Under the pieces are notes generated by a model. That model did not search any database. It was not told the origin of the DNA and was given only the letters and a program-made list of their open reading frames with translations. Shown piece after piece: positions 2 to 4,115 of a DNA stretch of 5,283 bases. The stretch is from a virus (lineage: Duplodnaviria; Heunggongvirae; Uroviricota; Caudoviricetes). Position 1 is the first letter of the stretch. Each line of letters begins with the position of its first letter. A program made the position numbers and the translations under genes. The stretch lies in IMG/VR virus record IMGVR_UViG_2675903509_000008; one strand, written 5' to 3'.

Positions 2-112
2 GTGTTACTGGTCGCCCTGCTGATCATGCTGACGAAATTCCCGGCATTGCAGAGTGATAATCACAGTGACGCCAAACAAGGATCNNTNTCNGCATCGCNN
101 TNNAAGCACTGA
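2..112 (+). CDS. possible 3' end of an upstream gene (partial, runs off the window start)
   Basis: Frame 2 is open from the window edge to TGA at 110-112, with E. coli-like codons (ctg, atc, acg, aaa, ttc, ccg) and a hydrophobic stretch VLLVALLIML. Ambiguous bases at 85-103 make the frame and end uncertain. Confidence 0.2.
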   Translation: MLLVALLIMLTKFPALQSDNHSDAKQGXXXASXXKH

Positions 113-1550: not shown

Positions 1551-2011
1551 GAGAGGTTAACTATGAGGCGCTTCGTGAGGCAGCACAAAACTATCAGTCG
1601 ACGCTGGCGTGGTATCAGGCTATCCCGGACAGCCCAAATGCTGAACAACGGGATTGTGATGCGGCTCTTGCTGCGTTTAAGCGTCACATCCGTCATCGGG
1701 AAGCGGATATTATCGCTGATTTGCTGGATGGACTGGAAGAAGCAAAATCACAACTCAAAGAGCAGCGTGAGTATTACGAAGGCGTTATCTCTGATGGGAG
1801 CAAGCGTATTGCTGAACTGGAAGCGCGGGAAGTTCAATTACCGACTCGCTACGACCTTCGATATGGACACCCGATAAATGCAGATGAGCGACATGTCATG
1901 ATACCTAAAGAAAATGGCAGTTGGCTTTACCTGATTGACCTAGAACACGCATTACGCGTCTCTGGCATTCGCATCAAAGGAGAGGAGCATGGAAATAAAA
2001 CCAGAGGATGA
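1547..2011 (+). CDS. phage hypothetical protein (predicted helical/coiled-coil N-terminal half)
   Basis: ATG 1547 overlaps the upstream stop (ATGA); AGGAGG 1534-1539 at 7-nt spacing. 154 aa, no internal stops, E. coli-like codon usage. Confidence 0.8.
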   Translation: MREVNYEALREAAQNYQSTLAWYQAIPDSPNAEQRDCDAALAAFKRHIRHREADIIADLLDGLEEAKSQLKEQREYYEGVISDGSKRIAELEAREVQLPTRYDLRYGHPINADERHVMIPKENGSWLYLIDLEHALRVSGIRIKGEEHGNKTRG

Positions 2012-2345
2012 GTTAAGCAATATCGTTTTATTTCCGGTAAAAGAGGATGACCCTCGTAATCAGGTTAATTTTCTTTATGAGCCATCGGAAAGACCATATT
2101 GTCATCACGCCTCTGTCCGGGTTGACGAAAAAGAGCGTCAGGTCCGCTGTAAAATCTGCGGTGCAGTTGTGGAGCCATTTGACTGGATGCTCTCTGTGGC
2201 GAAAAGAGAAACCAGACTGGCAGATGATGTAAGGCACTTGCGCCAGGAGGAGCGGGAAAGGCGAAAAAATATAGAAAAGCTAATTCAGATTGAGCGTAAC
2301 GCGAAAGCGCGGATACGCAGGGCGACAAAATCCAGAACTGAATAA
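1989..2345 (+). CDS. phage hypothetical protein with a CHH...CxxC putative zinc-ribbon and a basic C-terminal helix
   Basis: ATG 1989 preceded by AAAGGAGAGGAG 1976-1987; overlaps the upstream ORF by 23 nt. Motif YCHHASVRVDEKERQVRCKICG; Arg/Lys/Glu-rich tail. Confidence 0.75.
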   Translation: MEIKPEDELSNIVLFPVKEDDPRNQVNFLYEPSERPYCHHASVRVDEKERQVRCKICGAVVEPFDWMLSVAKRETRLADDVRHLRQEERERRKNIEKLIQIERNAKARIRRATKSRTE

Positions 2346-2409
2346 TTAAATTTAGCTCTGTTAAAAATTTAATCCTTAACCGGAGGGATTTCTGCACCCT
2401 CAGAACATC

Positions 2410-2438
2410 AGGAGGCCGCCCGAAAGGGCGGTAGTTAA
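2410..2438 (+). promoter_or_regulatory. hairpin-split ribosome binding site (SD - GAAA-tetraloop hairpin - start codon)
   Basis: AGGAGG 2410-2415, then perfect 6-bp stem CCGCCC (2416-2421) / GGGCGG (2426-2431) around a GAAA loop, then 7 nt to ATG 2439. The linear SD-to-ATG distance is 23 nt; it becomes 7 nt if the hairpin forms. Confidence 0.4.
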
Positions 2439-2621
2439 ATGCGAAAGTTTAAAATAATTATTGAAACGGGAATAGCCGGTGGAGATTTCGAGGATGAATT
2501 CGAAGTGGATGATGATGCGACGCCTGATGAAATACATGACGAAGCAAAAGATATTTTCTTTAACTACTGCAATTACTCATATCACGAAATAAAAGACGAA
2601 GAGGAAGAGCAAAATGGCTGA
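2439..2621 (+). CDS. small, strongly acidic hypothetical protein (60 aa)
   Basis: ORF MRKFKIIIETGIAGGDFEDEFEVDDDATPDEIHDEAKDIFFNYCNYSYHEIKDEEEEQNG with 19 Asp/Glu against 5 Lys/Arg. Stop TGA 2619-2621 overlaps the next start. Confidence 0.7.
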   Translation: MRKFKIIIETGIAGGDFEDEFEVDDDATPDEIHDEAKDIFFNYCNYSYHEIKDEEEEQNG

Positions 2622-2790
2622 TTTTGGTTCAACTAAATACAACGTCAGTTTTGAAGCATGGCATGAACTGTTAATGGACTATGCAGAGTTACGTGGTGGC
2701 AGTGCTGCTGATGCTGAAGCATGGCGTGATGATTATGAAGCAGGAAAAACTCCGGTCGAAGCATATTGTGATGAGTGGGGCGATGAATGA
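2614..2790 (+). CDS. small acidic hypothetical protein (58 aa), absent from the supplied ORF track
   Basis: ATG 2614 with GAGGAAGAG 2601-2609 upstream. Translates without stops to MADFGSTKYNVSFEAWHELLMDYAELRGGSAADAEAWRDDYEAGKTPVEAYCDEWGDE. It exactly fills the gap between neighbours, with stop/start overlaps at both ends (ATGA at 2787-2790). Confidence 0.6.
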   Translation: MADFGSTKYNVSFEAWHELLMDYAELRGGSAADAEAWRDDYEAGKTPVEAYCDEWGDE

Positions 2791-3302
2791 GCGAGATTAA
2801 TTATCAGGAAGGGCATGAAACGGCAGGGCAGGCAAAAACAGTGGCATGGCGATATCGCTACGTGAAAAAAGACGTTACAGACTTTCAGGGGAAGCCGTGG
2901 GCTGGTGACTGGAAATATGTACCGACAAAAGAGGATTGTAACGACAGGCCGAACTATGAAATTCAGGCCTTATTCATCGGCCCGCCAGTCCCGGTGACAT
3001 CAGAAGGACTGGTTAAAGCCGTGCGCTTTTATGAACAGGTAAAGCGTGAGAATCCGCCAGTCGAAACAGGAGCATGGAAGGATGCTGTTGACCGGGTGCT
3101 CAGAGAGGCCTGCTGCGCTGCCATTCTGGGTAAAGCCGACAATCCACCAGCATCCGGCAATCAGGTTAGCGAATTAACAATGTGGGTTAAACGACTGGTC
3201 AGTCAACTGAAAAAAGCTCAGCCGGACTGCAAATTACCGGAGAAGGCGATGGATTACCTGAAACGAAATGGACTGATAAGCGTGGAGGATGTTTTACGAT
3301 GA
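2787..3302 (+). CDS. phage hypothetical protein (171 aa)
   Basis: ATG 2787 overlapping the upstream stop; long stop-free frame with E. coli-like codon usage; stop TGA 3300-3302. Confidence 0.8.
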   Translation: MSEINYQEGHETAGQAKTVAWRYRYVKKDVTDFQGKPWAGDWKYVPTKEDCNDRPNYEIQALFIGPPVPVTSEGLVKAVRFYEQVKRENPPVETGAWKDAVDRVLREACCAAILGKADNPPASGNQVSELTMWVKRLVSQLKKAQPDCKLPEKAMDYLKRNGLISVEDVLR

Positions 3303-3422
3303 ATATTTAGACTAAAGAGTTTGTAACGCTATGTAAGTGATTTTTTCTGGTTTAGATATTTATATGTCCGGCCAAATTGAGGTGTGTTTAAATGTTATTG
3401 CACATTGATTGTAGGGGGAATA

Positions 3423-3602
3423 ATGAAAAACGCATTGCAGTTTTTGTTTGTTGCGTTCTGGTTGTTCGCATCATGTATGCCCATCATCTTCACAGCAAGG
3501 TATATGGAAAAAATTGATGTTTTGATATTAATGTTTGGACATATAAATGCCCTTTTTTTAGGGGTGTTCATGGCGGTCATGTGCATTGAATACTGGCGGT
3601 AA
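3423..3602 (+). CDS. small hydrophobic membrane protein, two predicted transmembrane helices (59 aa), in an AT-rich insert
   Basis: ATG 3423 preceded by AGGGGG 3413-3418; the track's GTG 3384 start lacks an SD. Two hydrophobic stretches (ALQFLFVAFWLFASCMPIIF and IDVLILMFGHINALFLGVFMAVMCI). Rare codons (tta, ttg, ata, agg) and visibly lower G+C than the flanks. Confidence 0.55.
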   Translation: MKNALQFLFVAFWLFASCMPIIFTARYMEKIDVLILMFGHINALFLGVFMAVMCIEYWR

Positions 3603-3685: not shown

Positions 3686-3744
3686 AACTGCGGGTGCTTG
3701 AGGCTATCTGTCTCAGGCATGAACACCAAAAGGCAGATAGAGAA

Positions 3745-3812
3745 AAGCCCCAGTTAACATTACGCGTCCTGCAAGACGCTTAACATTAATCTGAGGCCAT
3801 ATCTATGCGACA
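3745..3812 (-). ncRNA. candidate Sok-like antisense RNA against the mok/hok leader
   Basis: On the minus strand: -35 TTGACC (complement of + 3842-3847), 18-bp spacer, -10 TAATCT (complement of + 3818-3823). A transcript starting near 3811 would be antisense to the mok-like start codon (3805) and its GAGG (3793-3796). The 3' end is not defined; a GCGTC/GACGC hairpin (+ 3764-3779) lacks a U-tract. Confidence 0.3.
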
Positions 3813-3864
3813 CATAGAGATTAGCCTCTTACGGACCGAAAGGTCAAGGAGAAGCAGGCTATGA
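3805..3864 (+). CDS. mok-like leader ORF (19 codons), translationally coupled to hok
   Basis: ATG 3805 with GAGG 3793-3796 at 8-nt spacing; translates MRHIEISLLRTERSRRSRL; its TGA 3862-3864 overlaps the hok ATG 3861-3863 (ATGA). Confidence 0.4.
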   Translation: MRHIEISLLRTERSRRSRL

Positions 3865-4016
3865 AGCAGCAAAAGGCGATGTTAATCGCCCTGATCGTCA
3901 TCTGTTTAACCGTCATAGTGACGGCACTGGTAACGAGGAAAGACCTCTGCGAGGTACGAATCCGAACCGGCCAGACGGAGGTCGCTGTCTTCACAGCTTA
4001 CGAACCTGAGGAGTAA
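3861..4016 (+). CDS. hokD: Hok-family type I toxin (HokD/RelF-like, 51 aa)
   Basis: AAGGAG 3846-3851 at 9-nt spacing to ATG 3861. Translation MKQQKAMLIALIVICLTVIVTALVTRKDLCEVRIRTGQTEVAVFTAYEPEE matches the Hok family signature and, from memory, HokD/RelF over its full length. Confidence 0.9.
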   Translation: MKQQKAMLIALIVICLTVIVTALVTRKDLCEVRIRTGQTEVAVFTAYEPEE

Positions 4017-4084
4017 GAGACCCGGCGAGGGAGAAATCCCTCGCCACCTCTGATGTGGCAGGCATTCTCAACGCACCCGCACTT

Positions 4085-4115
4085 AACCCGCTTCGGCGGG
4101 TTTTTGTTTTTATTT
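4085..4115 (+). terminator. rho-independent terminator of the hok transcript
   Basis: Stem AACCCGC (4085-4091) / GCGGGTT (4096-4102) around a TTCG loop, followed by TTTGTTTTTATTTT. Confidence 0.7.

What the first reader, a model, noticed from the sequence alone, without database searches (positions are those of the whole stretch)
2410..2441. Shine-Dalgarno and start codon separated by a GAAA-tetraloop hairpin
AGGAGG (2410-2415) lies 23 nt before ATG 2439, too far for normal initiation. The intervening 16 nt form a perfect 6-bp GC stem with a GAAA loop, and folding it leaves a 7-nt effective spacing. This resembles the hairpin-bridged ribosome binding sites known for phage T4 genes 38 and 25, and implies structure-dependent control of the acidic mini-protein operon. 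Alternatively the hairpin is a processing or attenuation site and GGCGG (2427-2431) acts as a weak SD.
Basis: partly seen in the sequence, partly recalled or inferred. Interest (0 to 1): 0.5.

Follow-up and report, generated by a model that had tools for sequence, protein, structure and literature searches.

The report
Hairpin-bridged ribosome binding site in prophages
A strong ribosome-binding sequence and its start codon are separated by a very stable RNA hairpin, much as in phage T4 gene 38, and this unit belongs to a short conserved spacer, matched in about half of complete E. coli genomes, that sits in front of several unrelated prophage genes.

Summary
AGGAGG (2410-2415) lies 23 nt before ATG 2439. 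The 16 nt after it form a perfect 6-bp G/C stem with a GAAA loop (7 bp with G2415:U2432, -14.4 kcal/mol). Its predicted pair probability is about 1.0.

It is not private to this gene. It is the 3' end of a ~95-nt intercistronic linker (2338-2433) found in lambdoid prophages of E. coli, Shigella and Citrobacter. At least 8 kinds of gene lie upstream of the linker and at least 6 unrelated gene families downstream. Their start codons lie 6-11 nt after the hairpin foot, and 5 of the 6 families have no Shine-Dalgarno sequence (SD) of their own there. Homologues of two of these families found outside the linker do carry ordinary SDs. In phage ArgO145 the whole 33-nt intercistronic gap is SD + hairpin + 7 nt.

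The layout nearly superimposes on the T4 gene 38 site, which I read directly. My best reading is a split ribosome binding site (confidence about 0.55).

Covariation is weak: one compensatory event. The hairpin also persists where no start codon follows it. Nothing supports regulated "structure-dependent control". This is a new member of a known kind, untested experimentally.

The parts
2338..2433 (+). Conserved ~95-nt intercistronic linker. It runs from CTGAATAA, which holds the stop codon of the upstream gene, to GGGCGGTA. Mosaic junctions lie at both ends.
   Evidence: Alignment of 17 copies with different flanking genes. At least 8 kinds of upstream gene and at least 6 downstream gene families. 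A 311-nt query spanning the linker and the first gene matches 2734 of 5426 complete E. coli genomes.
2338..2355 (+). Inverted repeat CTGAAT / ATTTAG with a 6-nt loop. It spans stop codon TAA 2343-2345 of the 118-aa upstream gene and marks the 5' edge of the linker.
   Evidence: Read from the sequence. Conserved as CTGAAT..ATTYAG in most linker variants.
2383..2401 (+). First hairpin of the linker: GAGGG 2383-2387 paired with CCCTC 2397-2401, loop of 9 nt. Its GGAGG is SD-like.
   Evidence: Predicted by RNAfold. In the ArgO145/L143-type arrangement the same GGAGG is the canonical SD, 7 nt upstream, of an inserted 70-aa gene.
2410..2415 (+). AGGAGG, the proposed Shine-Dalgarno sequence for ATG 2439.
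   Evidence: Duplex with the 16S rRNA 3' end is -10.3 kcal/mol. The GGAG core is unchanged in 65 distinct linker sequences, although the search pattern required GGAG; dropping that requirement adds 1 GGAA copy and 3 IS-truncated copies among 139 gene copies. The 8 nt before it vary at most positions.
2415..2432 (+). Hairpin: 6 G/C pairs (2416-2421 with 2426-2431) plus G2415:U2432, with GAAA tetraloop 2422-2425.
   Evidence: 95.2% of cells are paired across 36 distinct sequences.
2433..2438 (+). Unpaired A/U-rich spacer AGTTAA. It contains in-frame TAA 2436-2438 and no SD-like sequence. The mosaic junction lies here.
   Evidence: no anti-SD duplex in the spacer. Sequences diverge by gene class immediately after GGGCGGTA.
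2439..2621 (+). 60-aa acidic protein of family DUF7167. ATG 2439 is its start.
   Evidence: Pfam PF23768, E = 7.9e-15. Annotated at this start in ON470612.1 and in RefSeq. All detected relatives are from E. coli.
2614..3302 (+). Two downstream ORFs (2614-2790, 58 aa; 2787-3302, 171 aa). They overlap the preceding ORF by 8 and 4 nt and probably depend on the initiation site at 2439 through translational coupling.
   Evidence: ORF list. Their own SD-like sequences are weak, -6.0 and -7.0 kcal/mol. Coupling itself is inferred.

Best explanation
AGGAGG (2410-2415) is the Shine-Dalgarno sequence for ATG 2439. The 16-18 nt between them are held in a permanently folded G/C hairpin with a GAAA tetraloop. 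In the 30S initiation complex the SD and the start codon are therefore separated by only 6-7 unpaired nucleotides plus the width of one helix. This is a split (non-contiguous) ribosome binding site of the kind shown experimentally for T4 genes 38 and 25.

SD plus hairpin form the 3' end of a ~95-nt conserved intercistronic linker of lambdoid prophages. Whichever gene has been recombined directly behind the hairpin foot uses this ready-made initiation site. Here that gene is DUF7167 and, by coupling, the two overlapping ORFs after it.

A simple deletion of the hairpin would give an ordinary binding site, so its retention suggests a second job. The most likely one is a barrier to 3'-to-5' exonucleases, or an insulator between cistrons. 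The element looks constitutive rather than a switch.

Shown: the anatomy, the predicted fold, the conservation, the portability and the lack of another free SD. Inferred: that ribosomes use AGGAGG with the hairpin folded, and the second job.
For: 1. Anatomy and stability.

2. The spacer has no anti-SD complementarity, while the other genes of the window (except the putative GTG start at 130) have SD-like sequences of -5.7 to -11.6 kcal/mol at normal distance.

3. Six unrelated gene families start 6, 7, 8, 9, 9 and 11 nt after the same hairpin foot. Only the 11-nt family carries its own GGAG.

4. Natural experiment: homologues of families B and C that are not behind the linker all carry AAGGAG, GGGAG or GAGGA 4-10 nt before the start. 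Behind the linker they carry none.

5. In the viable Stx2a phage ArgO145 and in L143-type contigs, the whole gap between a 70-aa gene and DUF7167 is TAA-TGTC-AGGAGG-hairpin-TAGTTAA-ATG. Junctions therefore fall immediately 5' of CAGGAGG and 3' of GGGCGGTA, and the SD and hairpin stay together.

6. The GGAG core is conserved while the neighbouring linker varies.

7. Stem changes are mostly C-to-T opposite G, which keep a G:U pair in the + strand RNA. In 117 unselected copies there are 35 such changes in the 5' arm against 2 G-to-A changes in the 3' arm.

8. There is one two-step compensatory path, G-C to A.C to A-U.

9. The T4 gene 38 site read here is UAAGGAG-(7-8 bp stem, UUCG loop, -11.4 kcal/mol)-UAAAU-AUG. 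It has the same layout, including the SD overlapping the stem foot. Its function is documented in PMC3014915 and PMC7297116.
Against: - There are no expression, toeprint or probing data for this element.
- Formal covariation is not above the shuffle control: 95.2% paired against 95.0%, with only one double-sided change. All copies are at least ~90% alike, so conservation could partly reflect recent common descent.
- The hairpin persists where no + strand start follows it: a convergent gene in L061 and L241, and another cassette in L224 and L238. This points to a role independent of initiation.
- The 3' arm plus U (GGGCGGU) resembles a weak SD at a canonical distance. The spacing data therefore fit the rival standby model equally well.
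- One gene family has its own SD behind the hairpin.
- The AGGAG is predicted to be only 0.3-0.8 unpaired, depending on context.
Confidence: 0.55

Rival explanations
1. Standby site plus sequestered SD. The 30S subunit docks on the single-stranded AGGAGG, waits for the hairpin to breathe, then uses GGGCGGU (2426-2432) as the real SD, 6 nt before AUG. The hairpin would then be an inhibitor that sets a low translation level.
For: GGGCGGUA pairs with the anti-SD at -6.6 to -7.8 kcal/mol, similar to the weak SDs of neighbouring genes, and lies at a canonical distance in every gene class. The 3' arm is almost invariant. In ArgO145-type copies a ribosome terminating 4 nt before AGGAGG would open the stem.
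Against: Opening the stem costs 12-14 kcal/mol against a gain of at most about 8. The 3' arm's conservation is equally explained by G-to-A changes breaking pairs. T4 gene 38, with the same layout, has no SD-like 3' arm and works with the hairpin folded.
Confidence: 0.15
2. The hairpin is an mRNA 3'-end, stability or processing element of the upstream cistron, and AGGAGG is incidental. The downstream genes are translated without an SD through their A/U-rich unstructured leaders.
For: The hairpin is kept where no start follows it, including diverged E. coli and Citrobacter copies facing a convergent gene. The same 21-mer forms the core of ordinary terminators in many unrelated bacteria. Spacers and early codons are very A/U-rich.
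Against: It does not explain why five gene families lack their own SD only when they sit behind the linker. It also does not explain why starts cluster 6-9 nt from the foot, why GGAG is conserved amid a variable linker, or why AGGAGG stays attached to the hairpin in recombinants. It is compatible with being a second function alongside the split binding site.
Confidence: 0.15
3. A regulated element, which is the first reader's 'structure-dependent control'. The hairpin next to the SD would be the operator of an RNA-binding translational repressor, or part of a switch in which CCUC 2398-2401 pairs either with GAGG 2383-2386 or with the SD's GAGG 2412-2415.
For: CCUC can pair with either GAGG, and one long-context MFE shows SD pairing. 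Stable hairpins at binding sites serve as operators in other phages (general knowledge; see also PMC3014915).
Against: The hairpin itself is predicted folded in all contexts. The alternative pairing is only 4 bp. That MFE has an ensemble frequency of 0.0034. No candidate binding protein is consistently linked, since the flanking genes vary on both sides. The loop varies (GGCA, UAAA, AAAA) in some copies.
Confidence: 0.07
4. A DNA-level element: a palindrome that acts as a recombination hot spot or protein-binding site and creates the mosaic junctions. Any RNA structure would be a by-product.
For: Junctions fall within a few nucleotides of the 3' foot in at least 8 contexts and just 5' of CAGGAGG in another. 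An IS element inserted inside the 5' arm.
Against: Substitutions are strand-asymmetric: 35 C-to-T opposite G against 2 G-to-A. This preserves pairing only in the + strand RNA and would not matter for duplex DNA. Junctions at the edges of functional units are also what selection on random recombinants produces (general knowledge of lambdoid mosaicism).
Confidence: 0.05
5. A transcription terminator or attenuator, or an N-utilisation (boxB-like) site.
For: It is a G/C-rich hairpin with a GNRA loop. Upstream, AGCTCTGTTAAAAATTTAA faintly resembles the lambda boxA plus spacer (resemblance recalled from memory).
Against: No U-tract follows the stem on either strand, and the terminator scan found nothing. 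The boxA-like stretch is not conserved: GCTCT, GCACT, GTGTT or absent. It has a tetraloop with a 6-7 bp stem rather than a 5-bp stem with a pentaloop (lambda boxB anatomy recalled from memory). It lies far from pL and pR, in the nin-like or early-left accessory region.
Confidence: 0.03

Closest known systems
Phage T4 gene 38 translation initiation region (split or non-contiguous ribosome binding site)
   Same: The SD sits directly against, and overlaps by 1-2 nt, a 7-8 bp G/C-rich stem capped by an extra-stable tetraloop. A 5-nt A/U-rich spacer and the AUG follow. The linear distance of 22 nt falls to 5 nt, against 23 nt falling to 6-7 nt here. Hairpin energies are similar, -11.4 against -14.4 kcal/mol.
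   Different: There is no sequence relationship: a UUCG loop and a GAGGGGC stem against a GAAA loop and a CCGCCC stem. T4 is a lytic phage and the gene is a single late gene. The T4 element is proven by mutation, while this one is only inferred. This one serves several unrelated genes as a portable unit.
Phage T4 gene 25 split initiation region (gene 26-25 junction)
   Same: An intervening stem-loop shortens a 27-nt SD-AUG distance to 11 nt. It is conserved among close relatives and lies at an intercistronic junction.
   Different: In T4 the hairpin involves the end of the upstream coding sequence (recalled from memory; not stated in the review I read). Here the hairpin is entirely non-coding and its neighbours change on both sides. 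I did not read the gene 25 sequence itself.
E. coli thrS and rpmE split binding sites; ribosome standby sites
   Same: The ribosome tolerates or uses a stable hairpin within the initiation region, and single-stranded segments flank a structure.
   Different: In thrS and rpmE the SD is at a normal distance from the AUG, and the hairpin separates it from an upstream enhancer or standby segment. Those hairpins are operators for autoregulation.
Intrinsic terminators built on GGAGGCCGCCC-GAAA-GGGCGGCCTCC-T(n)
   Same: The identical 21-nt core, including GGAGG, occurs in about 45 loci of unrelated bacteria.
   Different: There GGAGG pairs with a downstream CCTCC and, in many of them, a T-run follows. 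Here the stem stops at GGGCGG(T), GGAGG is left single-stranded and no T-run follows. A terminator origin of the element is possible but untested.
Conserved boundary or linker sequences at mosaic junctions of lambdoid phages (general knowledge, not checked in a paper here)
   Same: A short conserved intergenic sequence is flanked by interchangeable genes.
   Different: This linker has a defined internal anatomy: stop-codon hairpin, SD-containing hairpin, then SD plus tetraloop hairpin. Its 3' junction falls between the SD and the start codon of the next gene.

Membership tests
Split (non-contiguous) ribosome binding site, T4 gene 38/25 type | The SD is too far from the start codon in the linear sequence (more than about 15 nt). 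| tested here: met
   23 nt lie between AGGAGG 2410-2415 and ATG 2439. T4 values are 22 and 27 nt.
Split (non-contiguous) ribosome binding site, T4 gene 38/25 type | A stable stem-loop lies wholly between the SD and the AUG. | tested here: met
   6-7 bp stem with a GAAA loop, -12.4 or -14.4 kcal/mol, pair probability about 1.0.
Split (non-contiguous) ribosome binding site, T4 gene 38/25 type | The spacing after folding is within the working range (5-11 nt in T4). | tested here: met
   6-7 nt here. 6, 8, 9, 9 and 11 nt for the other gene families behind the same hairpin.
Split (non-contiguous) ribosome binding site, T4 gene 38/25 type | No other accessible SD lies at a canonical distance. | tested here: met
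   The unpaired spacer has no anti-SD duplex. The only other candidate, GGGCGGUA, is inside the stem.
Split (non-contiguous) ribosome binding site, T4 gene 38/25 type | The structure is conserved among relatives with pair-preserving changes. | tested here: inconclusive
   95.2% of cells are paired, but this is not above the shuffle control, and there is one double-sided change. In 117 unselected copies, 37 single changes keep the pair and 16 break it. One compensatory path was found. The sequences are too similar for a firm test.
Split (non-contiguous) ribosome binding site, T4 gene 38/25 type | Stem-disrupting mutations lower translation and compensatory ones restore it. | not testable with these tools
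   This needs reporter fusions and toeprinting.
Intrinsic (Rho-independent) terminator | A run of U directly after a G/C-rich stem. | tested here: not met
   The stem is followed by TAGTTAAAT on the + strand and CCTCCTGAT on the - strand. The scan found 0 terminator-like sites in 1900-3500.
Lambda-type nut site (boxA + boxB) | A conserved boxA, a boxB with a 5-bp stem and a GNRNA pentaloop, and a position just downstream of pL or pR. | tested here: not met
   The boxA-like stretch varies or is absent. The element has a tetraloop with a 6-7 bp stem. It lies in the nin-like or early-left accessory region. The defining anatomy of nut sites is recalled from memory, not checked in a paper.
Any curated RNA family (Rfam 15), including the prophage sRNAs AgvB, AsxR, Esr41 and STnc100 | A covariance-model match. 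| tested here: not met
   No hit at 2338-2440 even at E <= 1. The only hit above a family's gathering score in the window is sok at 3692-3863. Those sRNAs are in Rfam.
Standby-site initiation with a sequestered SD | The SD and/or AUG are buried in a stable structure, with an adjacent single-stranded docking segment. | tested here: inconclusive
   The pseudo-SD GGGCGGU is buried and AGGAGG is free, but the AUG itself is outside the stem. Which SD is used cannot be decided by computation.

The most novel reading that the evidence does not exclude
The AGGAGG-tetraloop-hairpin cassette is a portable 'landing pad' for translation. Any gene dropped by illegitimate recombination within about 6-9 nt of the hairpin foot is expressed without needing its own Shine-Dalgarno sequence. 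The hairpin insulates the SD from the incoming coding sequence and also caps the upstream message. On this reading the element actively promotes the gain and exchange of accessory genes at this position in lambdoid prophages. It may itself have arisen from the 5' half of an intrinsic terminator, whose GGAGG stem bases were freed when the 3' half was replaced.
Probability: 0.2. Interest if true: 0.65.

Novelty: new member of a known kind. Interest (0 to 1): 0.45.

Why it matters
In the papers I read, the natural cases of an SD and start codon bridged by a hairpin are T4 genes 38 and 25. A third, unrelated example would show that the arrangement is not a T4 oddity. This one is in temperate phages, the linker-plus-gene query matches about half of complete E. 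coli genomes, and it serves several unrelated genes.

It also bears on gene annotation and on translation-rate prediction. Start-site and binding-site predictors that look only 5-12 nt upstream would score these genes as lacking an SD. Some database entries already extend the ORF through the hairpin.

It offers a natural, compact 24-nt part for testing how the 30S subunit accommodates a folded helix between the SD and the P site. Finally, it bears on how accessory genes are swapped at mosaic junctions.

Tried and rejected
- Rfam search of the whole window at E <= 1: nothing at the element.
- Promoter and terminator scans of 1900-3500: one weak promoter-like site on the - strand at 2759-2732, away from the element, and no terminator-like site.
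- Leader peptide or termination-reinitiation through the hairpin: rejected. The frame of ATG 2439 has no ATG, GTG or TTG between TAA 2370 and TAA 2436 (read).
- nut-site reading: rejected, because boxA is not conserved and the loop and position are wrong.
- Formal covariation test: no signal above the shuffles, so I do not claim covariation support.
- Distant DUF7167 homologues, to see other binding-site solutions: all detected relatives are from E. coli. The search for related loci returned only identical copies (a wasted scan).
- Natural hairpin-deletion variants: none among 154 gene copies.
- Other non-homologous SD-hairpin-start cases in 1.44 Mb of related prophage DNA: none.
- Three 16-mer anchor hits (L011, L040, L043) were chance matches, not linker copies.
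- E. coli K-12 MG1655 Rac prophage: no DUF7167 gene is annotated there, so K-12 ribosome-profiling and 3'-end data are probably not usable. I did not search those loci for the linker sequence itself.
- Full-text searches for the sequence itself: no paper.

Full report
**1. The observation**

- AGGAGG is at 2410-2415.
- The stem is CCGCCC 2416-2421 paired with GGGCGG 2426-2431, and the loop is GAAA 2422-2425.
- ATG is at 2439.
- G2415 can pair with U2432, giving a 7-bp stem and leaving AGTTAA (2433-2438) as the unpaired spacer.

An in-frame TAA at 2436-2438 makes ATG 2439 the first possible start. It is the start annotated in GenBank and RefSeq. The ORF is a bona fide member of Pfam DUF7167 (E = 7.9e-15).

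RNAfold predicts the hairpin in every context. Its energy is -12.4 kcal/mol with 6 bp and -14.4 with 7 bp. Its pair probability is 0.98-1.00 in 135-310-nt contexts, in front of six of the eight downstream gene groups examined.

By simulation, an all-G/C perfect 6-bp stem with a 4-nt loop is expected 0.022 times per window. The full GGAG-hairpin-ATG arrangement is expected 0.0055 times.

**2. Where it sits**

The window is the accessory, nin-like region of a lambdoid prophage of E. coli. Homologous phage records carry cI, cII and O upstream, and hok, rem, ydfU, rusA and Q downstream. The window itself contains a sok/hok locus.

The gene order around the element is:
- an Ea22-like gene;
- a 118-aa Zn-ribbon-like gene ending at 2345;
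- the 93-nt gap;
- DUF7167 (2439-2621);
- two ORFs that overlap their predecessor by 8 and 4 nt (2614-2790, 2787-3302).

The other + strand genes of the window, except the putative GTG start at 130, have SD-like sequences at normal spacing, -5.7 to -11.6 kcal/mol. The two overlapping ORFs have weak ones, -6.0 and -7.0.

**3. The element belongs to a portable intercistronic linker**

A 311-nt query spanning the gap and DUF7167 (window 2330-2640) matches 2734 of 5426 complete E. coli genomes. Many matches stop exactly at the start codon. An anchor from the gap retrieved more than 120 viral or prophage contigs.

An alignment of copies with different neighbours shows one conserved block running from CTGAATAA to GGGCGGTA, window 2338-2433.
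- CTGAATAA contains the stop codon of whichever gene lies upstream and is part of an inverted repeat, CTGAAT/ATTYAG.
- Upstream there are at least 8 kinds of gene.
- Downstream there are at least 6 unrelated families: DUF7167; two MTELTKE proteins of 135 and 187 aa; a 72-aa membrane protein; a 173-aa protein; a 43-aa protein; and a 196-aa protein.

The taxonomic range seen is E. coli, Shigella flexneri and Citrobacter braakii. In the Stx2a phage ArgO145 the element lies in the early-left operon rather than the nin region.

**4. Evidence that AGGAGG plus the hairpin is the initiation site**

(a) Start codons of the six families lie 7, 9, 6, 11, 8 and 9 nt after the hairpin foot. Only the 11-nt family has its own GGAG in that interval.

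(b) Homologues of the MTELTKE and 72-aa families that are not behind the linker all carry AAGGAG, GGGAG or GAGGA 4-10 nt before the start. Behind the linker they carry none.

(c) In ArgO145 and L143-type contigs a 70-aa gene is inserted inside the linker.
- That gene uses the linker's first GGAGG (window 2382-2386) as an ordinary SD, 7 nt upstream.
- The entire gap from its stop codon to DUF7167 is TAA-TGTC-AGGAGG-CCGCCC-GAAA-GGGCGG-TAGTTAA-ATG.
- Junctions therefore occur immediately 5' of CAGGAGG and immediately 3' of GGGCGGTA, and the roughly 24-nt SD-hairpin unit stays intact.

(d) Among 65 distinct linker sequences the GGAG core does not vary, while most of the eight preceding positions do. 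That search pattern required GGAG. Without that requirement I found one GGAA copy and three copies truncated by an IS element among 139 gene copies.

(f) No other element with this architecture exists in 1.44 Mb of these prophage loci.

**5. Evidence on the structure**

In 117 unselected copies the 5' arm shows 35 C-to-T changes, each keeping a G:U pair in + strand RNA. The 3' arm shows only 2 G-to-A changes. This asymmetry fits an RNA structure on the + strand. It does not fit a DNA palindrome or a - strand RNA.

A complete enumeration in IMG/VR of the pair 2418:2429 gave A.C 23 times, A-U 7 times and G:U 7 times (module copies only). All the A-U copies lie within one haplotype. That is one two-step compensatory path.

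The formal test is not significant: 95.2% of cells are paired against 95.0% in shuffles, with one double-sided change. The copies are too alike for covariation to carry weight, so I do not lean on it. Loop variants GGCA, UAAA and AAAA occur. All stem variants still fold, at -4.4 to -14.4 kcal/mol.

**6. Comparison with the known kind**

The review PMC3014915 states that in T4 genes 38 and 25 an SD-AUG distance of 22 or 27 nt is reduced to 5 or 11 nt by an intervening structure. It also states that destabilising mutations reduce initiation and that the gene 25 structure is conserved in close T-even phages. PMC7297116 cites these two genes as its examples of hairpins separating the SD from the start codon and calls such sites non-contiguous or split.

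I read the T4 gene 38 site directly: UAAGGAG-AGGGGC-UUCG-GCCCUUC-UAAAU-AUG. It has a 7-8 bp stem at -11.4 kcal/mol, and the SD overlaps the stem foot. The window element is AGGAGG-CCGCCC-GAAA-GGGCGG-UAGUUAA-AUG.

The two share their architecture but not their sequence, so this is an independent example and not a homologue.

**7. What argues against, and the rivals**

The hairpin persists where no + strand start follows:
- a convergent 184-aa gene ends about 10 nt after it in an E. coli and a diverged Citrobacter copy;
- another cassette follows it in Shigella and E. coli copies.

So it probably has a role besides bridging. A plain deletion of the hairpin would yield an ordinary binding site, which points the same way. 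A barrier to 3' exonucleases or an insulator between cistrons is the simplest guess. This is inferred, not shown.

The 3' arm plus U, GGGCGGU, could pair with the anti-SD (-6.6 to -7.8 kcal/mol) at a canonical distance. A standby model, in which AGGAGG only docks the ribosome and the stem must melt, fits the spacing data equally well. It is disfavoured only by the 12-14 kcal/mol cost of melting and by the T4 precedent.

Other readings considered:
- SD-independent initiation from the A/U-rich leader cannot be excluded.
- A terminator or attenuator reading fails for lack of a U-tract.
- A nut-site reading fails on boxA, loop and position.
- No Rfam family matches.
- No leader ORF crosses the hairpin.

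The stem is predicted to be always folded, and the only alternative pairing is 4 bp: CCUC 2398-2401 with GAGG 2412-2415.

**8. Origin**

The same 21-mer, GGAGNCCGYCYGAAAGGGCGG, occurs in about 45 loci of unrelated bacteria. In most of them it is the 5' part of a longer palindrome (the 3' arm continues CCTCC or CCTC), and in many a T-run follows, i.e. an ordinary intrinsic terminator. The prophage element could be a terminator whose 3' half was replaced, freeing GGAGG as an SD. This is speculation.

**9. Verdict**

- The T4-like split binding site is the best-supported mechanism (about 0.55) but is untested.
- The regulatory inference is not supported.
- The element is a new, independent and unusually widespread member of a known but very small class, with the added twist of serving as a shared initiation site at a mosaic junction.
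- Interest is moderate (0.45).

Noticed in passing
window 3692-4016 and 4025-4106: A hok/sok toxin-antitoxin locus. The sok RNA family matches at E = 2.6e-24, and a hok-like 51-aa ORF lies at 3861-4016. Two hairpins follow, the second (4086-4101) with a T-run, which gives a weak isrK-like hit below threshold.
   Followed up: no
window 85-112: A cluster of ambiguous bases (N) in the sequence, inside the first ORFs of the window.
   Followed up: no
window 2383-2401; L143 and L262 (phage ArgO145): The first hairpin of the linker hides a GGAGG. In ArgO145-type prophages this GGAGG is the ordinary SD of a 70-aa gene inserted between the two SDs of the linker. The common linker may therefore be the scar left by loss of that gene, or the gene may be an insertion.
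   Followed up: partly
window 2338-2355: Inverted repeat CTGAAT/ATTTAG around the stop codon of the upstream gene. The last two codons and the stop (xCT GAA TAA) are shared by several unrelated upstream genes, so the 5' mosaic junction lies inside the coding end.
   Followed up: partly
window 2614-2621 and 2787-2790: ORFs 2439-2621, 2614-2790 and 2787-3302 overlap by 8 and 4 nt, and the latter two have weak SD-like sequences. This suggests a translationally coupled trio fed by the start at 2439.
   Followed up: no
proteins P0002-P0004: Database entries of DUF7167 with 87-93 aa read in frame through the upstream region. P0002 and P0003 read through the linker and hairpin (..SLTGGISAPSEQQEATRKGGSE-MRKFK..). 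This is impossible in the window, which has in-frame TAA at 2370 and 2436. One cluster of 139 members has ATG changed to AGG at the normal start. These are probably misplaced starts or decaying copies.
   Followed up: partly
L129, L145, L162 (around position 1466): Sequence resembling an IS4/IS10-family insertion-element end (my reading; transposase-like ORFs lie upstream) is inserted inside the 5' arm of the hairpin. It removes AGGAGG and leaves only GCCC-GAAA-GGGC before the DUF7167 start.
   Followed up: partly
L206-L258 (non-enteric loci): The identical 21-nt SD-plus-hairpin core occurs in Clostridia, Chloroflexota, Acidobacteriota, Actinomycetota and others, in most as the 5' part of a longer palindrome and in many followed by a T-run, i.e. 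ordinary intrinsic terminators. I estimate about 4 chance matches in 596 Gb assuming uniform base composition.
   Followed up: partly
L061 and L241, just after the hairpin: A convergent 184-aa gene on the opposite strand ends about 10 nt after the hairpin foot, in an E. coli and a Citrobacter braakii copy. The hairpin then sits between converging transcription units.
   Followed up: no
window 1989-2345: The 118-aa protein upstream of the linker has only a sub-threshold match to a TFIIB-type zinc ribbon (E = 1.6e-4, 21.6 bits against a cut-off of 29). Its function is unknown.
   Followed up: no
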